Shown here: one piece after another, positions 4,739-20,885 of the stretch
Numbering within the stretch: the stretch's first letter is position 1
Layout: each line of letters opens with the position of its first letter
Notes under the pieces: model-generated
The model's database searches: none
Told to the model about the DNA's origin: nothing
Seen by the model: only the letters and a program-made list of their open reading frames with translations
Program-made: the position numbers and the translations under genes
Source: Klebsiella phage KPN8
Sequence record: OP079919.1
Length of the DNA stretch: 64,000 nt
Strand: one strand, 5' to 3'

Positions 4739-6446
4739 TACCAGCACCACATCGACCACATCAAGTACGAGTGTTGCGGCGACGGGTCCTCAGTTACCTA
4801 ACTCGAATGATCTACTCACCCCACTCGATATTTCCAACCTTTACGATCCGGATACGGTAGCTGATTCTGATGCGTCAAAATACATCGTTGGTCGTGAAGG
4901 CCAAACGGTCATAGACGGATTGAACCAACGAGCTTACGTCATTACTCACGTTGGGACTGAAGATGCGAAATACAAATCAACGTTAAAACGGATAGGGTTT
5001 GTTACGGATAGCGACGACAACTCGAGTGACATCATTGGTTTACCGGGACGCTTTGCCGGCAATGGTGTTTTGGGAATCGACTACAGTGTCAGACCTCCTC
5101 GGGCTGTCATCGATGGTCGTGTATGGGCTCCTGATGCAGCCTACGGTTTGCTTTATAAAGGCGTGGTTATCGGTGATAGCGGTCAGGTCATTTCTGTTCA
5201 ATACGCAACTAATGGTGATTTGATTTCTAATCAGGTCCCGACTAAATTAGCTGCGGTTAACAACATGACCAACCACAGCATCTTCACCACTACTGCATTT
5301 TCGGTGACTCAAACGGCTGACGAACTCCCGGACGGAAGTTTGTGTACGCTGGTGTTCTTCGATGCTGCCGGTAACATGATTCCTGAACCTTATGAACTTG
5401 GCGTGATGCACACTGCGTTGCTGAGAGATCATCAGATCGGGATCAAGTATGTTTCGGCTATTGAACTGGTCTCTCCTTGGTTCACCGATACGACCGATCC
5501 TACTACGCTGAACATTCCTATCAACGTTGCGATGAGTTCGGTTCAATTCTCTGCGCGCATCCATTATAACGATGGGTCTACCAAAGAGCAATTGATTGAC
5601 GGGACCAAATGTGCGATCATCGGGCTCAATGAATATAAACCTACTACGGTGGGTCAGCGAGCTTCGATCGTACTTCGTTATTCGTTCGATGAGGACGAAC
5701 AGGCTTTAATTGCTACGCCTAATTATCCCGACATGATCACCCAGGCTTATCAGATCGTTTGTACTCAGGTTAACGGCGCCTACTCTCCAAAACTCTACAC
5801 TTATCCGGTGTGGAACGGAACAGGGTATTCGCTCAAACATTACCTGTACGATCTTACCCGTGGGTATGCGACTGACGTTACTCAGCATGTTACACTCAAC
5901 GACACGTCGCCAGCCTTCCAGCCGGCTAACTATGGCGTTCAGCAAGACATGGTGTTTAACCTGACGCTGTCAGACGTATCTTCGACGTTTAAAGCATGGA
6001 CGCTGGTACAACATACTTCTATTACGTTGTATAAAGCGAATACCGGCACGGGTCGTCGTTGGGCTATTCAGTACTCTTCTGCGAATAATCCTTACGTCGC
6101 TTATAACGTCGGGTATACCGAAGCCAATGGTGTTCAGTCCATTAACCTGGCTGGTTCCATCCTCACGATTTCTGATTGGTTGAATCGACTCTACTATCCG
6201 GTAGAACCATTGATCGATACCACGAAAGAATCGGCGGCTCTGGTTCCTAACTATATCCGGTTGGTTGACACTAACGGGGTTACTCACGACCTTGAAATCA
6301 ACGATTGGAATAAACCTCAAGCTCTCACTTCTCCTGTTGCAAGTGGCCAAACCCTCTTCCTGCAATGGATTCAGAAATCAGAGAACGGGGCCGAACTCCA
6401 ATTGGCGACCACGGGTGTTGTTGTAGACGTCGCTCCGAGCAATTAA
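4731..6446 (+). CDS. hypothetical protein (571 aa) with Ser/Thr-rich N-terminus
   Basis: ORF start overlaps the upstream stop (ATGTTTGA), suggesting translational coupling. No motif recognised. Confidence 0.6.
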   Translation: MFDTSTTSTTSSTSVAATGPQLPNSNDLLTPLDISNLYDPDTVADSDASKYIVGREGQTVIDGLNQRAYVITHVGTEDAKYKSTLKRIGFVTDSDDNSSDIIGLPGRFAGNGVLGIDYSVRPPRAVIDGRVWAPDAAYGLLYKGVVIGDSGQVISVQYATNGDLISNQVPTKLAAVNNMTNHSIFTTTAFSVTQTADELPDGSLCTLVFFDAAGNMIPEPYELGVMHTALLRDHQIGIKYVSAIELVSPWFTDTTDPTTLNIPINVAMSSVQFSARIHYNDGSTKEQLIDGTKCAIIGLNEYKPTTVGQRASIVLRYSFDEDEQALIATPNYPDMITQAYQIVCTQVNGAYSPKLYTYPVWNGTGYSLKHYLYDLTRGYATDVTQHVTLNDTSPAFQPANYGVQQDMVFNLTLSDVSSTFKAWTLVQHTSITLYKANTGTGRRWAIQYSSANNPYVAYNVGYTEANGVQSINLAGSILTISDWLNRLYYPVEPLIDTTKESAALVPNYIRLVDTNGVTHDLEINDWNKPQALTSPVASGQTLFLQWIQKSENGAELQLATTGVVVDVAPSN

Positions 6447-16542: not shown

Positions 16543-16729
16543 TGAGTTTCGGGACTGGAGAAATTTCCGTCTCGATAAAAATTCAACTGAGAATTTTTAC
16601 TCTGGGGTTTTCGGCGGTTATAATATTTCACTGCGGGAATTTAAAAACTCAACGGGTTTACGATCCCGTATGTTTTTGAGTTTTATTTCCCGTATAAAAT
16701 ACTCCGTGCCGTAAGACAACACCCCACAG

Positions 16730-16767
16730 AAAAAACCTCGCCTTCGGAAAAATTCCTCGAAGGCGAG
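16730..16767 (-). terminator. intrinsic terminator on the minus strand (CTCGCCTTCG / CGAAGGCGAG stem followed by UUUUUU on the reverse strand)
   Basis: 10-bp perfect stem with about a 10-nt loop. The plus-strand AAAAAA at 16730-16735 becomes a U-run 3' of the hairpin on the minus strand. It lies about 190 nt upstream of the 16542(-) start codon. Confidence 0.45.
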
Positions 16768-16925
16768 TTGCCATGATCTCACTCGAGCAAGAATCAATCC
16801 GACATACAATCCCAAACGGTCCGAAATTTTTTCTTCGGAATTTTGGTCATTGGTAAATTTTTACATACAAATCTATTTTATATTTGTATTTTTCGCGTGC
16901 GCGGATATTCCAAATTTTCAAAGAT

Positions 16926-17018
16926 AATCTAAAACCGATTCCAATTCTGGGTTTTTATTTTTCTGTGTTTTGATTTTCCAAATCCAATTTTCAAAAATCT
17001 AAATCTAAAAAATCTAAA
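16926..17018. repeat. iteron-like direct repeats AATCTAAA(A) x4 in AT-rich DNA
   Basis: Copies at 16926, 16996, 17002 and 17011, the last three nearly tandem (AAAAATCTAAATCTAAAAAATCTAAAAAA). Confidence 0.5.
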
Positions 17019-17056
17019 AAATTTAATACTCAAAAATCAATTTTTCCTAGGGGTCC

Positions 17057-17090
17057 TTATTACGCGTGCGTACGCCCGCACGCGTATAAA
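17057..17090. repeat. GC-rich inverted repeat TTATTACGCGTGCG-tacgcc-CGCACGCGTATAA (14-bp arms) embedded in AT-rich DNA
   Basis: Perfect 14-bp arms. Mostly alternating purine-pyrimidine (CGCGTGCG), so it has Z-DNA and cruciform potential. Confidence 0.5.
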
Positions 17091-17240
17091 AAACAAATAT
17101 AATACTACGTATTATATTTTCCTTTGGTTTTATATTTTTAATTTATTAAAAATATATTAATATAAATTATTATATTTTTTATTAGTTTGTTTTTATAAAA
17201 AATATATAAATATATATTTATATATATTTATATTCATTAG

Positions 17241-17280
17241 GCGCGCGCCAGCGTGCGTGTGTGTACGTGCGCGCACGCGT
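17241..17280. repeat. 40-nt GC-rich alternating purine-pyrimidine tract GCGCGCGCCAGCGTGCGTGTGTGTACGTGCGCGCACGCGT, flanked by (TA)n-like AT repeats
   Basis: Contains inverted repeat GCGTGCG/CGCACGC and self-complementary GCGCGCGC. Immediately follows the ATATATTTATATATATTTATAT low-complexity stretch. Confidence 0.5.
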
Positions 17281-17685
17281 AATAGAGAAGGGATGATAAA
17301 AATACAGGATTTAATCTGAGAAATTATCCAGAAAAAATCACACAGAGTAAAAAAATATTAACCGGAACGATTTTGAGAAGATTTAATACCCAACCTAGGA
17401 ATTCGTATCAGTCGGATGAAAAAGGGTTTTAGAAATCGATACAGGAAGTTTTAGAGGGTATTCCGATCGAGTTCTCAGGAAAGAATTATTCAGATTAAAA
17501 TATTTTAATCAGGGTAATTAATTTTTACAGTGAATTAAATTTATCGAGACGAGAAGATTTAATCGCAAAGTAATATCTTACGGAGAGTATAATCTTCTGA
17601 ACAGGACCGAGATCTCGAATAGCCAGATGGAAATTATCCATCCGTTCGAAAGTTAACCTGAAATATCCCTAAGAGGCCAAATCCT

Positions 17686-18420
17686 ATGCAACCAGCTAAC
17701 CCATGGAAAAACAACAAACACGTTAAATCACAAGATAACACCACCGCAGACCGGTACGAATCTCTTCTGCGTGAATTACCTGATGCGCTCAATGCGACTC
17801 CCAGAGACCCAGGTTACTTGATCGCTACCAAAAAGATTTTATTAGTACTGGAAATTCTCGAAGGAACTCGATTGTCAGTTCGTGACGTGATGGAAAACGA
17901 GAACCTGATTCGTAAAGTTCACGAGTTACTGGTGGAGTTGGGTTGGAAGCAAGCGATTAGCCGAGGGACTCAGGTTTTTGTTACTCACCAGGATTTAATT
18001 AAACCGGGTGTTTACCGATTGATTGATCTCGATGAAACCGCGATGGGTTACACCAAAGAGATCATGGATCATATTTTATTAGACCGTCGGTTCAGTGTTC
18101 GGGTGGACGGTAACGATATCCGGATTCTTCCTGGAGACCGTAGTGCGAGTAATCCGTTTAGTCTGCTGTCTGCTAACGTAGTAAGTAGCTGGCGTAAGGC
18201 GATACGGGAATACGATAAAACTGTTACCAGTAATCTTATTGGACATCTGACGGTTATCGGCGAAGATACGATGAGTTGCCCGCTCGATTTAAAACTCATC
18301 TTCGCCCTGCTGGATTACCTCGGCTGGCCGGAAATGTATTTAACCGGCGAACAGATCTTATTGAGTAACCCCATGGGTGATTATCAAACCCTCGAGGTGA
18401 ATTTTATCGATCCTGAGTAA
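17686..18420 (+). CDS. hypothetical protein (244 aa)
   Basis: First + strand ORF after the 1.1 kb intergenic region. AGAGG RBS-like sequence upstream. Confidence 0.55.
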   Translation: MQPANPWKNNKHVKSQDNTTADRYESLLRELPDALNATPRDPGYLIATKKILLVLEILEGTRLSVRDVMENENLIRKVHELLVELGWKQAISRGTQVFVTHQDLIKPGVYRLIDLDETAMGYTKEIMDHILLDRRFSVRVDGNDIRILPGDRSASNPFSLLSANVVSSWRKAIREYDKTVTSNLIGHLTVIGEDTMSCPLDLKLIFALLDYLGWPEMYLTGEQILLSNPMGDYQTLEVNFIDPE

Positions 18421-18429
18421 TTCTCAACT

Positions 18430-19390
18430 ACAGTCCGATGTTATTAGTAAAGATCTTTGGACTCCCTGTTGATTAACTAGCGACCCAACCTCATCTCTTT
18501 GAACCTCCTTACCACGAGCGAGATAACCAAAGTAGCTAGGGATTTTCAGGGGGTTCAATCCCCATTTTCGTTAATCTTATTAGACCCACTGTCCTAAGCC
18601 CATGAAGCCTTGAAATCTCTCCTGTAGCAGACAAAGTTTTCGTTCGGTGGGATAGATTAACGTTTTTATTCACGTCGTATTATCTGATGAGTCTTCGACG
18701 CTAAACAAGACGAAACCTAATGAATCTATTTTATTAGGTCATAATTCAACCTAAGCGTTGAACGGGCAGTTAGGGGCAATGGTCCCCGAGGTCTTCAGCT
18801 TCTTCGCCTGCCCGCACTAAAAAGTTCTTTCATGATTAGGCGTGCCGCGCTCTACGAGCGGACAACAAGCAACCGAAAGTGGGAGAGAAAGAAGCGTGTC
18901 CGGTCGCTTGCCGGAAAGTTGGTTCAGGCGGGTTTCTTCCCAACCCAAACGACGCTGCCCAAGATAGGGCTGCAAGTCGTATTAGCGTATTATACCGGTA
19001 TGCGGGGTTTCTGCGATAAACCGGGTTAGCTACGGGTAAGAAACCGGCCGGAGTAATCAGCCTTTCGTATTCGGGTAACGTGAGTTATCGTAGAGATATC
19101 TCTGAGGGTTAGGCCAACCCCCGACGTTCTTCGAGTACGAAGGGAAGCTTGCTCAGCTTCGTAGAAACTCCAAAATCTCAGACGGTCACACCTCGCAATC
19201 TTACGGCAGTATGATTGCCTATTCGTCCTTTGTCGCTCACCAAGGGGCGAGTAGGAAACCTCTGCCACGGCGTTTCGATTGTTTGCCTTTGCCATAACCC
19301 TCCTGTATAGGTTGAGTGTTAACTTCCCCAAGAGTATAACCTGTTATCTCTCTCTTCGTGAGGAGTCGGAGATAATGGGATAAATTCTTA
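18430..19390 (+). ncRNA. candidate large structured non-coding RNA (strand and ends uncertain)
   Basis: About 1 kb with no ORF above 101 aa on either strand, inside an otherwise tightly coding genome. Balanced GC content and many local hairpins, for example CGGGCAG...GGGGCAATGGTCCCC...CTGCCCG nested stems near 18762-18813, AGAGATATCTCT at about 19091, CTTCGAGTACGAAG and GAAGCTTGCTCAGCTTC near 19130-19160, and GGGGGTTCAATCCCC at about 18552. Confidence 0.3.
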
Positions 19391-19400
19391 GGAGTTCGTT

Positions 19401-19589
19401 ATGTACACATACCAGTATACCGTGCGATACCGAATACCTAATTCTGTGTTTACGACTTACAGCGGAGAAATTACTTCTGACTGTTTGCTCAATAACGCTA
19501 ATCGCATTTTTGATGTCTTGCGTACTGAAGTTCTTAAAGCTGTTAACGTTAACTCGTTTAGCATTACGAACTTTAAGCTGAAAGAATAA
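19401..19589 (+). CDS. small hypothetical protein (62 aa)
   Basis: AGGAG RBS 7 nt upstream of the ATG. Followed about 170 nt later by a terminator. Confidence 0.4.
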   Translation: MYTYQYTVRYRIPNSVFTTYSGEITSDCLLNNANRIFDVLRTEVLKAVNVNSFSITNFKLKE

Positions 19590-19758
19590 GTCGAGCTACG
19601 CGCTCAACCTACCTTAGGGCCGGAAGTAGTTACGACTTAGGGGGAAAGAAGAGTCGTGCCTTTGAGTACCCCAACCCCATTCGTGTGGTGATCTTCCACA
19701 TCATCCCATGGATAATGCTGCATCATCATCATTAAAGTTCTACCATGAATTTTATTCC

Positions 19759-19790
19759 TTCCAGTAGGGTTCGTCCCTACTGGACTTTTT
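19759..19790 (+). terminator. Rho-independent terminator (CCAGTAGGG-ttcgt-CCCTACTGG + TTTTTT)
   Basis: 9-bp perfect stem, 5-nt loop and T-run, upstream of the phuZ promoter region. Confidence 0.55.
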
Positions 19791-19922
19791 TCGCGTTTTA
19801 TTTATCGGCACATATAAGGTTATAGAGGAACTAGATTTTTTGAGTTCTAAATTATGGTAATGTAAAGCAAAAGATAATGCTTTCCATTCCAACTATCATA
19901 ATTTCTTTTAGGAGTTTCATCT

Positions 19923-20885
19923 ATGAGCACATTACGTGTTTACGCGTGCGGCGGTACCGGTATTAATATTGCGTCTAAATGGATTGCCACCGGTGCGAAT
20001 ACGCTTATTCGTAAAGCCCAGTTCATTGGACTGGATAGCAGTGAAAACAACAAACCGTATAACGACGCCTTTAAGGTCGAACGTCCTGAAGGAACTCGTG
20101 GCGGTGGCAAAGAACGTAAGCTGATCGGTAAAATCGCTGCTGGGTTTATTGACAGTATTTTGACCAAACATAAACCGGGCGATTTCAACCTGATCATCAT
20201 GAACGCGGCTGGCGCTACCGGGAGTACGTTCGGCCCGACTCTGATCAACCGTCTCCTCACCCAGGGCGTTCCGGTCATTGCGTTGGTCGTAGGTGACCTG
20301 ACTTCTGAACTGGAAAACTACAACACGGTTAAAACGTTTGAAAGCCTGGACAACCAGCGCATCAATCTGAACGTGCCGGTTATCATCGACTACGTGGACA
20401 ACGCCAAATATCCCAGCCGTGGATTGGCCGACAAATATGCCATCGGCCGTCTTGATATCCTGAGCCTGTTCTTAACCGACGAACACGAAGAAAGCGATTT
20501 CCAAGACATCCGGAACCTGTTCTATTACAACCAGGTTACCAAGGCGGCGCCTACTCTTGCTCGTATCGACTTCTTGACCGATACTCAGTTAGACAACGTT
20601 ACTCCGGGGCTGGTTGCTGAATTTGGTTTGTATCGTAAAGCGGACGATATCGGTAGCCATATTAAAAATCTGGCATACCGTTCGACCGGCGTTATTCAGG
20701 AAGGTAGCACTAACTTCCCGGCTGGAATAGAACATCTCCACATGGTCTTTGACCACGATGCGACGATTAAAGATATCTTGGTTCTGGTCCAGGATCTTAA
20801 AGATATTGAGATCCAAAATAACGAACGTTTTAAATCCGCTCAGCAGGTTGGAAACGGCGGCGATGATTCTGGAATGTCCTACTAA
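19923..20885 (+). CDS. phuZ: phage tubulin/FtsZ-like GTPase (PhuZ-like)
   Basis: N-terminal RVYACGGTGINIA (G-G-x-G GTP-binding loop). NAAGATGSTFGP matches the tubulin signature [SAG]GGTG[SA]G. 320 aa is similar to PhuZ of 201phi2-1 and phiKZ, and the C-terminus is acidic. AGGAG RBS. Confidence 0.7.
   Translation: MSTLRVYACGGTGINIASKWIATGANTLIRKAQFIGLDSSENNKPYNDAFKVERPEGTRGGGKERKLIGKIAAGFIDSILTKHKPGDFNLIIMNAAGATGSTFGPTLINRLLTQGVPVIALVVGDLTSELENYNTVKTFESLDNQRINLNVPVIIDYVDNAKYPSRGLADKYAIGRLDILSLFLTDEHEESDFQDIRNLFYYNQVTKAAPTLARIDFLTDTQLDNVTPGLVAEFGLYRKADDIGSHIKNLAYRSTGVIQEGSTNFPAGIEHLHMVFDHDATIKDILVLVQDLKDIEIQNNERFKSAQQVGNGGDDSGMSY

What the first reader, a model, noticed from the sequence alone, without database searches (positions are those of the whole stretch)
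18430..19390. About 1 kb ORF-poor, hairpin-dense region upstream of phuZ: candidate large structured ncRNA
In a genome where genes abut or overlap, this stretch has no ORF above 101 aa on either strand and no AT-rich promoter-like composition. It carries many local stems, including nested CGGGCAG/CTGCCCG around GGGGCAATGGTCCCC, the palindrome AGAGATATCTCT, CTTCGAGTACGAAG, GAAGCTTGCTCAGCTTC, and a T-arm-like GGGGGTTCAATCCCC that is not part of a tRNA. It is followed by a small RBS-bearing ORF (19401-19589) and a clean terminator (19759-19790). It could be a regulatory or scaffolding RNA, a ribozyme-like element, or a decayed gene.
Basis: seen in the sequence. Interest (0 to 1): 0.7.

Follow-up and report, generated by a model that had tools for sequence, protein, structure and literature searches.

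The report
Hammerhead ribozyme inside conserved phage RNA leader
The gene-free kilobase upstream of phuZ in this Klebsiella jumbo phage is a strongly conserved, folded RNA that contains a previously unannotated self-cleaving hammerhead ribozyme and leads into a tiny conserved gene; this has not been reported for nucleus-forming phages in the papers I could search.

Summary
Window 18421-19400 has no credible gene, normal GC content, and folds far better than shuffled sequence on the + strand (z = -5.6).

It is not a decayed gene. Across 12 Miami-like phage genomes it is about ten times more conserved than synonymous sites of the flanking genes.

Its core is a complete type I hammerhead ribozyme at 18672-18745, with predicted cleavage between C18740 and A18741. 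All catalytic-core bases are present. Stems I, II and III and a loop II pseudoknot all show compensatory changes across four phage lineages. A hammerhead descriptor is expected 0.003 times per 64 kb by chance.

Around the ribozyme lie other conserved RNA modules:
- a long hairpin that displays ACCUCCUUACC, a copy of the 16S rRNA 3' end, in its loop;
- a hairpin followed by GGAAGUUG;
- a covarying hairpin just before the ribosome-binding site of a conserved 62-aa ORF, whose predicted fold resembles ribosomal protein eL20/LX;
- a conserved 3'UTR element, followed by a terminator.

Best reading: a self-processing, structured leader RNA, or RNA-protein module, for the small gene. What the roughly 650-nt RNA does beyond the ribozyme is unresolved. 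The hammerhead is a new member of a known class; the surrounding RNA matches no Rfam family.

The parts
18457..18558 (+). Long irregular hairpin. Its 13-nt apical loop displays the anti-Shine-Dalgarno-like motif ACCUCCUUACCAC (18503-18515).
   Evidence: CCTCCTTACCAC is invariant in lineages A, B and C while its flanks diverge. In all three it sits in the apical loop of a hairpin whose stem sequence differs. The motif's predicted P(unpaired) is 0.81 in A and 0.84 in C. It is unique in the window. ACCTCCTTACC is identical to the E. coli 16S 3' end plus the first 2 nt of the spacer.
18601..18660 (+). Hypervariable spacer between the 5' hairpin and the ribozyme.
   Evidence: pi = 0.133, the same level as synonymous sites, in 12 group-A genomes.
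18672..18677 (+). 5' strand of the hammerhead pseudoknot (ACGUCG). It pairs with loop II, CGACGC, at 18696-18701.
   Evidence: The helix has 4-6 bp in all four lineages, with one double compensatory change (G-C to U-A in L010). It is the helix the nested MFE model picks in all four lineages. About 40% of hammerheads use such a stem I/II pseudoknot (PMC3088659).
18679..18745 (+). Type I hammerhead ribozyme. Layout: stem I 18679-18683 / 18741-18745; core CUGAUGA 18684-18690; stem II 18691-18695 / 18707-18711; GAA 18712-18714; stem III 18715-18723 / 18731-18739; C17 = 18740. Predicted cleavage is between 18740 and 18741.
   Evidence: It is the only descriptor hit in the window, against 0.003 expected per 64 kb. 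Sub-threshold Rfam hammerhead hits occur in lineages A, B and D. 18699-18798 is 100% identical in the first 6 group-A genomes. Among all 12, the hammerhead differs only in L043 (U7C plus two loop II bases) and by A/G at 18679. 93.9% of cells are paired and 7 pairs have double changes across A/B/C/D. A vs D is 86.5% identical over 52 nt, E = 1e-11.
18746..18761 (+). Hairpin UCAAC-CUAAGC-GUUGA at the new 5' end of the cleaved 3' product.
   Evidence: It is identical in A and B. In D a different hairpin, CCCGAU-UCG-AUCGGG, sits at the same place, and C has a weaker one.
18762..19280 (+). Conserved, highly structured body of the 3' product. It includes the CGGGCAG/CUGCCCG domain, the hairpin UCCGGU-CGCUU-GCCGGA followed by AAGUUGG (18899-18925), the GGGAAGC hairpin (19142-19160), and GGCAG...CCUAUUCG...GAGUAGG (19205-19255).
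   Evidence: pi = 0.011-0.019 against 0.14-0.20 at third codon positions of the flanking genes. Substitutions at paired positions: 18 kept / 8 broken on the + strand, 6 / 15 on the minus strand. There is a double compensatory change inside group A at alignment columns 566/587, about 19001/19022. The hairpin + GGAAGUUG island is present in A, C and E, and the GGAAGUUG sequence also in D. The GCAGCCUA island is present in B-E, and is split by an insertion in A.
19281..19320 (+). Second hypervariable pocket, with a 9-nt indel.
   Evidence: pi = 0.109. There is a 9-nt insertion in the Miami subgroup and a 1-nt insertion in L047.
19340..19379 (+). Hairpin CCUGUUAUCUCU ... GGAGAUAAUGGG immediately upstream of the ribosome-binding site. 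It is a candidate translational operator or protein-binding site.
   Evidence: It is present in all five lineages. The base CCYGUUA/UAAUGG is conserved and the distal part covaries: 98.2% of cells are paired, 4 pairs (8 cells) have double changes, and slid controls give 0-1. The SD region's predicted P(unpaired) is only 0.23-0.26 in A and 0.19 in D.
19390..19589 (+). SD (AGGAG, 19390-19394) and the small ORF (19401-19589, 62 aa).
19590..19700 (+). Conserved 3'UTR element ('X'). A helix GUCGAG..CGAC encloses CCUUAGGGCCG (19612-19622) and is followed by the hairpin GGGGGAAAG...CCCC.
   Evidence: It is conserved in A, B and C, with covariation in the distal helix (CUAC/GUAG, CAAC/GUUG, UAAC/GUUA) and in the second hairpin (GGGG/CCCC vs GGGA/UCCC). 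A related sequence in lineage D lies upstream of the hammerhead instead. It is unique in the window.
19760..19791 (+). Intrinsic terminator that closes the transcription unit.
   Evidence: A 10-bp stem (6 G-C pairs) followed by CTTTTTT. It is conserved in group A and B, and analogous terminators are present in C and D.

Best explanation
The ORF-free kilobase is the non-coding part of a conserved + strand transcription unit. Its order is: 5' hairpin, hammerhead, about 650 nt of structured RNA, a 62-aa ORF, a 3'UTR element, and a terminator.

Shown by sequence analysis: a complete type I hammerhead ribozyme with a stem I/loop II pseudoknot lies at 18672-18745.

Inferred: during or after transcription it cleaves between C18740 and A18741.
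- The upstream product keeps almost the whole ribozyme and ends in a 2',3'-cyclic phosphate. In groups A and B it carries the 244-aa gene's mRNA plus the hairpin that displays a copy of the 16S rRNA 3' end.
- The downstream product starts with a 5'-hydroxyl and a hairpin. It consists of a tightly folded, strongly conserved leader whose last hairpin occludes the ribosome-binding site of the small ORF.

Most likely function (inferred, moderate confidence): self-processing uncouples this module from upstream transcription and gives it a defined, nuclease-resistant 5' end. The folded leader then sets the stability and translation of the small, eL20/LX-like (probably RNA-binding) protein, possibly by that protein binding its own leader.
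For: Non-coding status:
- There is no ORF longer than 101 aa.
- tblastx between lineages finds only the small ORF.
- The 101-aa minus-strand ORF is frameshifted in L047, changes mostly non-synonymously, and is absent in lineages B and C.
- It has no Pfam hit.

Selection:
- pi = 0.015 over 18661-19280, against 0.14-0.20 at third codon positions of the flanking genes.
- Two pockets sit at the neutral level.

Hammerhead:
- All core bases are present: CUGAUGA, GAA, the A15.1-U16.1 pair, and H17 = C.
- It is the single descriptor hit, against 0.003 expected per 64 kb.
- The same ribozyme is found in lineage B (L042), C (L010) and D (L048). It is by far the best-conserved segment.
- 7 of 22 pairs show double compensatory changes and 93.9% of cells are paired; slid controls give 0-1 such pairs.
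- The only core substitution among 15 sequences is at the free position N7 (L043).
- The pseudoknot matches a common hammerhead feature (PMC3088659).

Structure on the + strand:
- z = -5.6 against -3.0 for the minus strand.
- Substitutions at paired positions keep pairing 18:8 on the + strand and 6:15 on the minus strand.
- RNAalifold finds 4 double-compensated pairs and 2 broken pairs among 416.
- The hairpin before the SD covaries in five lineages.

Transcription unit:
- In L010 no protein gene precedes the RNA. Terminators and an AT-rich stretch do.
- A terminator follows the 3'UTR in A, B, C and D.

Small protein:
- It is a real gene with an eL20/LX-like fold.
Against: - No transcript, cleavage or structure-probing data exist. 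Everything is inferred from sequence.
- The Rfam hammerhead hits are far below the gathering score (about 24 bits against 48.5). They come from the type III model, which fits only the core and stem II.
- Stem I is short and AU-rich (5 bp), and has a U.U mismatch in lineage D.
- Only four or five lineages are available and two are partial, so the architecture of the 650-nt body is not solved. Between lineages it aligns only in short islands.
- The covariation alignments were trimmed by hand around the proposed structure.
- The nearest-neighbour model shows no change in SD accessibility on cleavage, so a role of cleavage in translation is not supported.
- A 650-nt leader is very long for the control of a 62-aa gene.
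Confidence: 0.65

Rival explanations
1. The RNA is mainly a trans-acting large non-coding RNA or RNP scaffold. The hammerhead trims it to size, it assembles with the neighbouring eL20/LX-like small protein, and its 16S-3'-end replica engages host translation components or SD sequences. The small ORF is simply co-transcribed.
For: - About 650 nt are under selection as strong as first codon positions of phuZ. That is more than a simple leader would need.
- Several islands are conserved in five lineages.
- The exposed ACCUCCUUACC loop occurs in A, B and C, and a separate 12-nt 16S replica, GAUCACCUCCUU, occurs in lineage E.
- The small protein has a ribosomal-protein-like fold.
- The RNA, small ORF and phuZ keep their order across all lineages.
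Against: - No second processing site that would release the RNA from the ORF was found.
- The 16S-like motif lies on the other side of the cleavage site from the large RNA in A, B and C.
- The motif is absent or only weakly present in D.
- The individual matches to rRNA are no better than shuffled sequence gives.
- No extended complementary targets exist in the window.
Confidence: 0.2
2. The hammerhead is a regulated switch. The anti-SD-like loop upstream pairs in cis with the small ORF's ribosome-binding site, and self-cleavage disconnects it and turns translation on. This would be a natural counterpart of engineered ribozyme-RBS devices.
For: - A conserved anti-SD-like motif and the SD lie on opposite sides of the cleavage site in A, B and C.
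- The inverted repeat 18505-18527 / 19343-19365 is 23 nt long and 83% complementary.
- The SD is largely sequestered in the predicted ensemble.
Against: - The partition function gives zero pairing probability between the motif and the SD, and SD accessibility is unchanged on cleavage (0.23 vs 0.26 in A; 0.52 vs 0.52 in C).
- G19363A in 4 of 12 group-A genomes breaks the proposed long-range helix but keeps a local stem.
- Lineage D has no such motif upstream of its hammerhead.
- Motif-SD complementarity is only 5-6 bp.
Confidence: 0.08
3. The region acts at the DNA level, for example as a centromere-like site for the PhuZ tubulin (analogous to tubC/TubR upstream of tubZ), a replication origin, or a packaging site. 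On this view the RNA structure is incidental.
For: - Its position directly upstream of phuZ, together with a small conserved protein gene, resembles tubC-tubR-tubZ order. This comparison is from my own knowledge of type III partition systems.
- The DNA sequence is strongly conserved.
Against: - There are no iterons, tandem repeats or direct repeats.
- Substitutions are wobble-compatible on the + strand only.
- A complete ribozyme with compensatory changes cannot be explained at the DNA level.
- The small protein's fold is beta-beta-alpha-beta, not a winged helix.
Confidence: 0.03
4. It is a decayed gene, or it hides short real genes such as Miami gp268/gp269 on the minus strand.
For: - Miami's annotators called two minus-strand ORFs here.
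- The 101-aa ORF is open in 11 of 12 group-A genomes, and the 9-nt indel is in frame.
Against: - Conservation is about ten times stronger than at synonymous sites and shows no codon periodicity (18/15/11 by phase).
- The ORF is frameshifted in L047, uses a TTG start, changes mostly non-synonymously, and is absent in B, C and D.
- It has no Pfam hit.
- Four of the five annotated group-A records leave the region unannotated.
Confidence: 0.02
5. It is a selfish hammerhead-bearing mobile element inserted upstream of phuZ.
For: - Hammerheads are common in selfish and repeated elements (PMC3088659).
- In this segment L034 is 98.8% identical to the window, against 92% over the wider region. This shows local recombination.
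Against: - There is one copy per genome, always at the same place, in lineages whose PhuZ proteins are only 49-74% identical.
- There are no terminal repeats, no second ribozyme, and no mobility gene.
- It was not found elsewhere in IMG/VR, JGI metagenomes or GTDB genomes.
Confidence: 0.02

Closest known systems
Type I hammerhead ribozymes with a stem I/stem II pseudoknot (Perreault et al. 2011, PMC3088659)
   Same: - Identical catalytic core.
- Three helices, with stem I open and stems II and III capped.
- A 4-6 bp pseudoknot between loop II and the strand leaving stem I.
- GUC (GUA in lineage D) as the cleavage triplet.
   Different: - It scores below every Rfam hammerhead gathering threshold.
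- It lies inside a roughly 1-kb conserved structured RNA of a nucleus-forming jumbo phage.
- Its activity has not been tested.
Hammerheads in phage or prophage intergenic regions and polycistronic RNAs (PaP3, Bcep176, the Agrobacterium ardA triple arrangement; PMC3088659)
   Same: A self-cleaving ribozyme sits between cistrons of a phage transcript, so that cleavage would separate the upstream and downstream RNAs.
   Different: - There is a single ribozyme, not a flanking pair or triple.
- It is followed by about 650 nt of conserved structure before the next ORF.
- It has kept the same position while PhuZ diverged to 49% identity.
RiboJ-type synthetic insulators: a hammerhead plus a downstream hairpin placed before an RBS (from my own knowledge, Lou et al. 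2012)
   Same: A hammerhead whose cleavage removes upstream RNA and leaves a 5'-OH transcript that begins with a hairpin, upstream of a translated ORF.
   Different: - It is natural, not engineered.
- The RBS is 650 nt downstream and is predicted to be occluded, not exposed.
Large phage-associated structured ncRNAs (GOLLD, ROOL; Rfam)
   Same: An RNA of several hundred nucleotides, strongly structured, carried by phages, with unknown function.
   Different: - It matches no Rfam family even at E <= 10.
- It contains a ribozyme.
- It is physically continuous with a small ORF.
Autogenously regulated ribosomal-protein leaders (from my own knowledge, e.g. S15, L20, S8 operators)
   Same: A structured leader with a hairpin over the RBS, in front of a small protein whose fold resembles a ribosomal protein. 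The leader also contains an rRNA-like sequence.
   Different: - The fold resemblance is to archaeal/eukaryotic eL20/LX, not to a bacterial r-protein.
- No binding has been shown.
- The leader is several times longer than known operators.

Membership tests
Hammerhead ribozyme | Conserved catalytic core: C3 U4 G5 A6 N7 G8 A9, G12 A13 A14, the A15.1-U16.1 pair, and H17 (not G) at the cleavage site. | tested here: met
   CUGAUGA 18684-18690, GAA 18712-18714, A18715-U18739 and C18740 are all present. The core is kept in all 12 group-A genomes and in lineages B, C and D. The only change is U7C in L043, at the unconstrained N7 position. H17 is A in lineage D.
Hammerhead ribozyme | Three helices (I, II, III) meeting at the core, kept by compensatory substitutions. 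| tested here: met
   Stems I, II and III are 5, 5 and 9-10 bp. Double changes occur in stem I (3 pairs), stem II (1 pair) and stem III (2 pairs). 93.9% of cells are paired; 0 of 500 shuffles and no slid control reach this. Caveat: the alignment was trimmed by hand.
Hammerhead ribozyme | [quoted passage not shown] | tested here: met
   ACGUCG (18672-18677) pairs with loop II CGACGC (18696-18701). The helix has 4-6 bp in four lineages, with one G-C to U-A double change. That it forms alongside stem II is inferred, not shown.
Hammerhead ribozyme | Score at or above the Rfam gathering threshold for a hammerhead model. | tested here: not met
   Hammerhead_3 scores 23.7-24.8 bits against a gathering score of 48.5. 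RAGATH-1-hammerhead scores 21 against 56.3. The reported alignments fit the type III topology only at the core and stem II, so the low score reflects a model mismatch, not a defective core.
Hammerhead ribozyme | Site-specific self-cleavage that gives 2',3'-cyclic phosphate and 5'-OH ends. | not testable with these tools
   This needs an in vitro transcription/cleavage assay or end-specific RNA-seq.
   There is no tRNA or tmRNA in the window and no Rfam tRNA hit. The hairpin is absent in lineages B, C and D, and its G-run is predicted to pair elsewhere.
Known large structured RNAs and other ribozymes in Rfam (GOLLD, ROOL, group I/II introns, twister, pistol, hatchet, HDV-like and others) | A covariance-model match. 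| tested here: not met
   No family reaches its gathering score in the 64-kb window. With E <= 10 on 18300-19950 and E <= 1 on lineages B-E, only sub-threshold hammerhead-type hits (Hammerhead_3, RAGATH-1-hammerhead) and chance snoRNA/miRNA hits appear.
Protein-coding gene or pseudogene | A conserved reading frame, excess third-position variation, and protein-level similarity between relatives. | tested here: not met
   tblastx between lineages finds nothing in the region. Variable sites show no clear three-base periodicity (18/15/11) and the minus-strand ORF is frameshifted in L047. There is no Pfam hit. A BLASTX search against nr could not be run.
TubZRC-type centromere (tubC) upstream of a tubulin gene | An array of direct repeats (iterons) bound by a small DNA-binding adaptor. 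| tested here: not met
   There are no tandem or meaningful direct repeats in 18000-20000. The small protein is beta-beta-alpha-beta, not a winged helix.

The most novel reading that the evidence does not exclude
The module is a new class of large phage RNA, specific to one clade of nucleus-forming jumbo phages. On this reading a roughly 0.65-0.9 kb hammerhead-processed RNA assembles with its neighbouring eL20/LX-like mini-protein. It displays a replica of the 16S rRNA 3' terminus (ACCUCCUUA|CC, the mature-end junction) to engage or decoy host factors that act on the ribosome's anti-Shine-Dalgarno tail or on SD sequences. That would make it an RNA-based manipulation of host translation.
Probability: 0.15. 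Interest if true: 0.85.

Novelty: new variant of a known kind. Interest (0 to 1): 0.62.

Why it matters
- Self-cleaving ribozymes are known in phages, but their roles are mostly unknown. I found none reported for chimalliviruses: a 2026 review of jumbo-phage biology contains no mention of ribozymes, and a full-text search for 'hammerhead ribozyme' with 'jumbo phage' gave only unrelated papers.
- Here a hammerhead has kept a fixed place, next to a small gene and the phuZ tubulin gene, through deep divergence. It sits inside one of the most strongly conserved non-coding stretches of the genome. That gives a tractable system (cultured Klebsiella phages Miami, phiKp_32 and YC1) in which to ask what a natural hammerhead does for a virus.
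- It also provides a candidate new large structured RNA, with an unusual copy of the 16S 3' end, to test.
- It shows that gp268/gp269 of the Miami reference annotation are probably not genes.

Tried and rejected
- Rfam at gathering thresholds on the whole window: no hit. tRNA/tmRNA scan: none.
- Homologous region upstream of phuZ in Aphrodite1, PDCC-1 and RisingSun: no nhmmer similarity and no hammerhead core motif, so the module is not general to PhuZ phages.
- IMG/VR scans gave nothing: one with PhuZ and two with hammerhead patterns. The GTDB genome scan also gave nothing. The JGI metagenome scan returned one Miami-like genome and 30 unrelated hammerheads that merely share stem II.
- Long-range helix 18505-18527 / 19343-19365: weakened by G19363A in 4 of 12 genomes and not reproducible in lineage B.
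- Pairing of the anti-SD-like loop with the small ORF's SD, and a cleavage-dependent change in SD exposure: not supported by the partition function.
- Pairing of that loop with the GGAAAGUUGG island: strong in A (-20.2 kcal/mol), but the register is not kept in C.
- Broader mimicry of rRNA beyond the 16S 3' end: the other matches to rrnH are no better than shuffled sequence gives.
- Kissing of the CCUAAG hairpin loop (18750-18755) with CUUAGG in the 3'UTR: 6 bp in A and B, but the loop differs in C, so this stays open.
- MAFFT alignment of the hammerhead including lineage D misaligned stem III, so structure-guided trimmed alignments were used instead.
- Minus-strand ORF as a gene: rejected.
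- Iterons or tandem repeats: none.
- PHROGs and Pfam for the small protein and the 244-aa protein: no significant hit.
Full report
**1. Observation**

The window comes from a Miami-like Klebsiella jumbo phage. It is 97% identical to Raoultella phage VB_ZK_P1 and 93% identical to Klebsiella phage Miami, phiKp_32, YC1 and 'Stenotrophomonas' phage BUCTxx100.

- Between the stop of a 244-aa gene (18420) and the ATG of a 62-aa ORF (19401), the longest ORF is 101 aa, on the minus strand with a TTG start.
- GC content is 0.41-0.55.
- The + strand of 18741-19420 folds at -250.3 kcal/mol against -210 +/- 7 for shuffles (z = -5.6). The minus strand gives z = -3.0.
- There is no tRNA in the window, and no Rfam family reaches its gathering score.

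**2. Not a gene, and not decaying**

I collected 12 Miami-group copies of the region. Nucleotide diversity differs sharply between the region and its flanks:

| Segment | pi |
|---|---|
| 244-aa gene, all sites | 0.102 |
| 244-aa gene, third codon positions | 0.199 |
| phuZ, all sites | 0.054 |
| phuZ, third codon positions | 0.141 |
| phuZ, first codon positions | 0.016 |
| Non-coding 18661-19280 | 0.015 |
| Pocket 18601-18660 | 0.133 |
| Pocket 19281-19320 | 0.109 |

The two pockets vary at the neutral rate. The rest of the non-coding stretch is as constrained as first codon positions of phuZ.

Other evidence against coding:
- Variable sites show no clear codon periodicity.
- The 101-aa minus-strand ORF (Miami gp269) is frameshifted in L047. 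It changes mostly non-synonymously and does not exist in the more distant lineages.
- tblastx between lineages detects only the small ORF.
- Pfam finds nothing.

**3. The hammerhead**

A permissive Rfam scan gave weak hits to hammerhead models at 18669-18745 (24.2 bits, E = 0.026). Read as a type I hammerhead, the sequence is complete:

| Element | Coordinates | Sequence |
|---|---|---|
| Stem I | 18679-18683 / 18741-18745 | AUUAU / AUAAU |
| Core | 18684-18690 | CUGAUGA |
| Stem II | 18691-18695 / 18707-18711 | GUCUU / AAGAC |
| Core | 18712-18714 | GAA |
| Stem III | 18715-18723 / 18731-18739 | begins with the A15.1-U16.1 pair |
| Cleavage nucleotide | 18740 | C17 |

- A descriptor requiring the core and all three stems hits only here in the window. 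In 300 first-order Markov simulations it is expected 0.003 times per 64 kb on both strands.
- Within group A the only substitution in the core is U7C in L043, at the one unconstrained core position.

**4. Distant relatives**

Public phage genomes hold nothing between 97% and 41% PhuZ identity. I therefore searched metagenome proteins.

- PhuZ homologs at 74% and 49% identity led to contig L009 (lineage B, which holds only the 3' part) and contig L010 (lineage C).
- The 244-aa protein led to L042. It comes from the same sample as L009 and holds the 5' part of lineage B.
- A profile of the small protein led to L048-L050 (lineage D) and L051 (lineage E, partial).
- In all of these the small ORF is conserved. 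Wherever the contig extends past it, a PhuZ-like tubulin gene follows directly.
- Lineages B, C and D carry the same hammerhead. It is by far the best-conserved stretch: A vs C is 80% identical over 79 nt, and A vs D is 86.5% over 52 nt with E = 1e-11.

Compensatory changes support every helix:

| Helix | Compensatory changes |
|---|---|
| Stem I | AUUAU/AUAAU (A, B), GUCAU/AUGAC (C), AUUCU/AGAUU (D) |
| Stem II | GUCUU/AAGAC (A-C), GCCUU/AAGGC (D) |
| Stem III | A-U to G-C changes in B and D |
| Loop II with the strand 5' of stem I | ACGUCG/CGACGC (A, D), GGUCG/CGACG (B), ACGUCU/AGACGU (C) |

- On a structure-guided alignment, 93.9% of cells pair and 7 of 22 pairs show double changes. No shuffle out of 500 reaches these values, and no slid control exceeds one such pair.
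- The fourth helix is the kind of stem I/II pseudoknot that about 40% of hammerheads use, and which is needed for fast cleavage (PMC3088659).
- A nested folding model cannot hold this helix together with stem II. This is why plain MFE prediction shows it instead of the ribozyme fold.

**5. The rest of the RNA**

Outside the ribozyme the lineages align only in islands, but the islands recur.

(a) *A 16S-like loop.* Upstream of the hammerhead, A, B and C share an invariant CCUCCUUACCAC.
- It lies in the apical loop of a long hairpin whose stem differs in each lineage.
- Its predicted probability of being unpaired is 0.81-0.84.
- ACCUCCUUACC equals the last nine bases of E. coli 16S rRNA plus the first two bases of the spacer.
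- Lineage E has a separate 12-nt replica, GAUCACCUCCUU, inside its leader.
- Each match alone is no better than shuffled sequence gives. The recurrence at the same rRNA site in independent positions is what makes it notable.

(b) *A hairpin followed by GGAAGUUG.* The hairpin is present in A, C and E, with covarying stems where it is predicted. The GGAAGUUG sequence is also present in D.

(c) *Two further islands.* A GGGAAGC hairpin occurs in A, B and D. A GCAGCCUA island occurs in B-E, and is split by an insertion in A.

(d) *A hairpin just before the ribosome-binding site.* CCYGUUA-stem-loop-stem-UAAUGG is present in all five lineages. 98.2% of cells are paired and four pairs (eight cells) show double changes.

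(e) *A two-hairpin element in the 3'UTR of the small ORF.* It contains CCUUAGGRCC and GGGGGAAAG...CCCC and is conserved in A-C. A related sequence in D lies upstream of the hammerhead instead.

Within group A, three further results point to a + strand RNA structure:
- Substitutions at positions paired in the window's own MFE structure keep pairing 18:8 on the + strand but 6:15 on the minus strand.
- RNAalifold finds 4 doubly compensated pairs and only 2 broken pairs.
- L010 folds with z = -4.9.

**6. Transcription unit and the small gene**

- In lineage C no protein gene precedes the RNA. Terminators and an AT-rich stretch do.
- Terminators follow the 3'UTR in A-D.
- The module therefore behaves as its own unit: 5' hairpin, hammerhead, structured RNA, small ORF, 3' element, terminator.
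- The small ORF is a real gene. Its diversity is highest at third codon positions, and it is conserved in five lineages.
- AlphaFold predicts a confident beta-beta-alpha-beta fold (pLDDT 93.4).

**7. Mechanism**

*Shown from sequence:*
- a conserved, covarying hammerhead with an intact core;
- a conserved, + strand structured RNA;
- a conserved small ORF and 3' element.

*Inferred:*
- Cleavage occurs at 18740/18741.
- It leaves the ribozyme body on the upstream product, which ends in a 2',3'-cyclic phosphate.
- It also gives a hairpin-capped, 5'-OH downstream RNA of about 1.05 kb.
- That RNA has its RBS mostly occluded (P(unpaired) 0.19-0.26 in A and D).

*Preferred reading.* This is a self-processing leader, or RNA-protein module, that insulates the small gene from upstream transcription and controls its stability and translation.

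*Main rival.* The large RNA may act in trans, with the small protein as its partner and the 16S-like loop as a functional surface.

*Tested and not supported, or rejected:*
- a cleavage-actuated anti-SD switch;
- DNA-level roles;
- hidden genes;
- a mobile element.

**8. Relation to known systems and novelty**

- The ribozyme meets the structural definition of a type I hammerhead with a pseudoknot. It fails Rfam's score cut-offs, and its activity is untested.
- Phage intergenic hammerheads are known (PMC3088659).
- I found no report of one in a nucleus-forming jumbo phage.
- The surrounding RNA matches no Rfam family.
- I rate the ribozyme as a new member of a known class, set in a new and unexplained conserved RNA context.

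**9. Limits**

- There are no expression or cleavage data.
- Only four or five lineages are available, and two are partial.
- The covariation alignments were trimmed by hand.
- The fold of the 650-nt body is unsolved.
- BLASTX against nr was not available.

Noticed in passing
window 18503-18513; L051 74-85 and 589-598: ACCTCCTTACC in lineages A, B and C equals the E. coli 16S rRNA 3' end plus the first two spacer bases. Lineage E carries GATCACCTCCTT (a 12-nt 16S replica) inside its leader, and CTTACCTTAA (the 16S-end/spacer junction) downstream of its small ORF.
   Followed up: partly
window 19590-19700; L048 about 560-625: The conserved 3'UTR element (CCUUAGGGCCG ... UAGGGGGAAAG ... GAGUACCCCAAC) follows the small ORF in lineages A-C. 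A related sequence in lineage D sits upstream of the hammerhead, so the order of modules is permuted.
   Followed up: partly
window 18750-18755 and 19613-19618: The loop of the first hairpin after the cleavage site (CCUAAG) is perfectly complementary to CUUAGG in the 3'UTR element in lineages A and B. This could be a 5'-3' end interaction of the cleaved RNA. It is not kept in the same form in lineage C.
   Followed up: partly
window 19401-19589: The 62-aa protein is predicted with pLDDT 93.4. Its best structural matches are the archaeal/eukaryotic ribosomal protein eL20/LX. Pfam and PHROGs give no significant hit.
   Followed up: partly
window 16550-17685: A second ORF-poor stretch of about 1.1 kb lies upstream of the 244-aa gene. 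It is very AT-rich (GC down to 0.21) and has several promoter-like and terminator-like hits. In Miami it is annotated with four ORFs of 34-52 aa. It is probably a divergent promoter region.
   Followed up: no
L001 3469-3648 and 3726-4040 (Miami gp268, gp269); L048 740-1297: Minus-strand genes called over the conserved RNA, and in L048 over the hammerhead itself, are probably annotation artefacts.
   Followed up: partly
L034 (SKEH01000004.1) vs window 18437-19729: This metagenomic Miami-like genome is 98.8% identical to the window across the non-coding module, but only about 92% over the wider 17600-19729 stretch. This points to mosaic exchange of the segment among group-A phages.
   Followed up: no
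L005 (OR529409.1): A phage deposited as a Stenotrophomonas maltophilia phage (BUCTxx100) is about 93% identical to Klebsiella phage Miami across this locus. That is an odd host assignment.
   Followed up: no
window 19389-19400; L048 1201-1212: The SD-plus-spacer string TAGGAGTTCGTT of the small ORF in group A recurs exactly in lineage D. There it lies about 200 nt upstream of that lineage's small ORF start and has no ATG after it (E = 2, so it may be chance).
   Followed up: no
L043 about 5003-5030: One group-A genome has CUGACGAG (U7C) and loop II CGACGAAAAAC. The pseudoknot bases and all constrained core bases are unchanged.
   Followed up: yes
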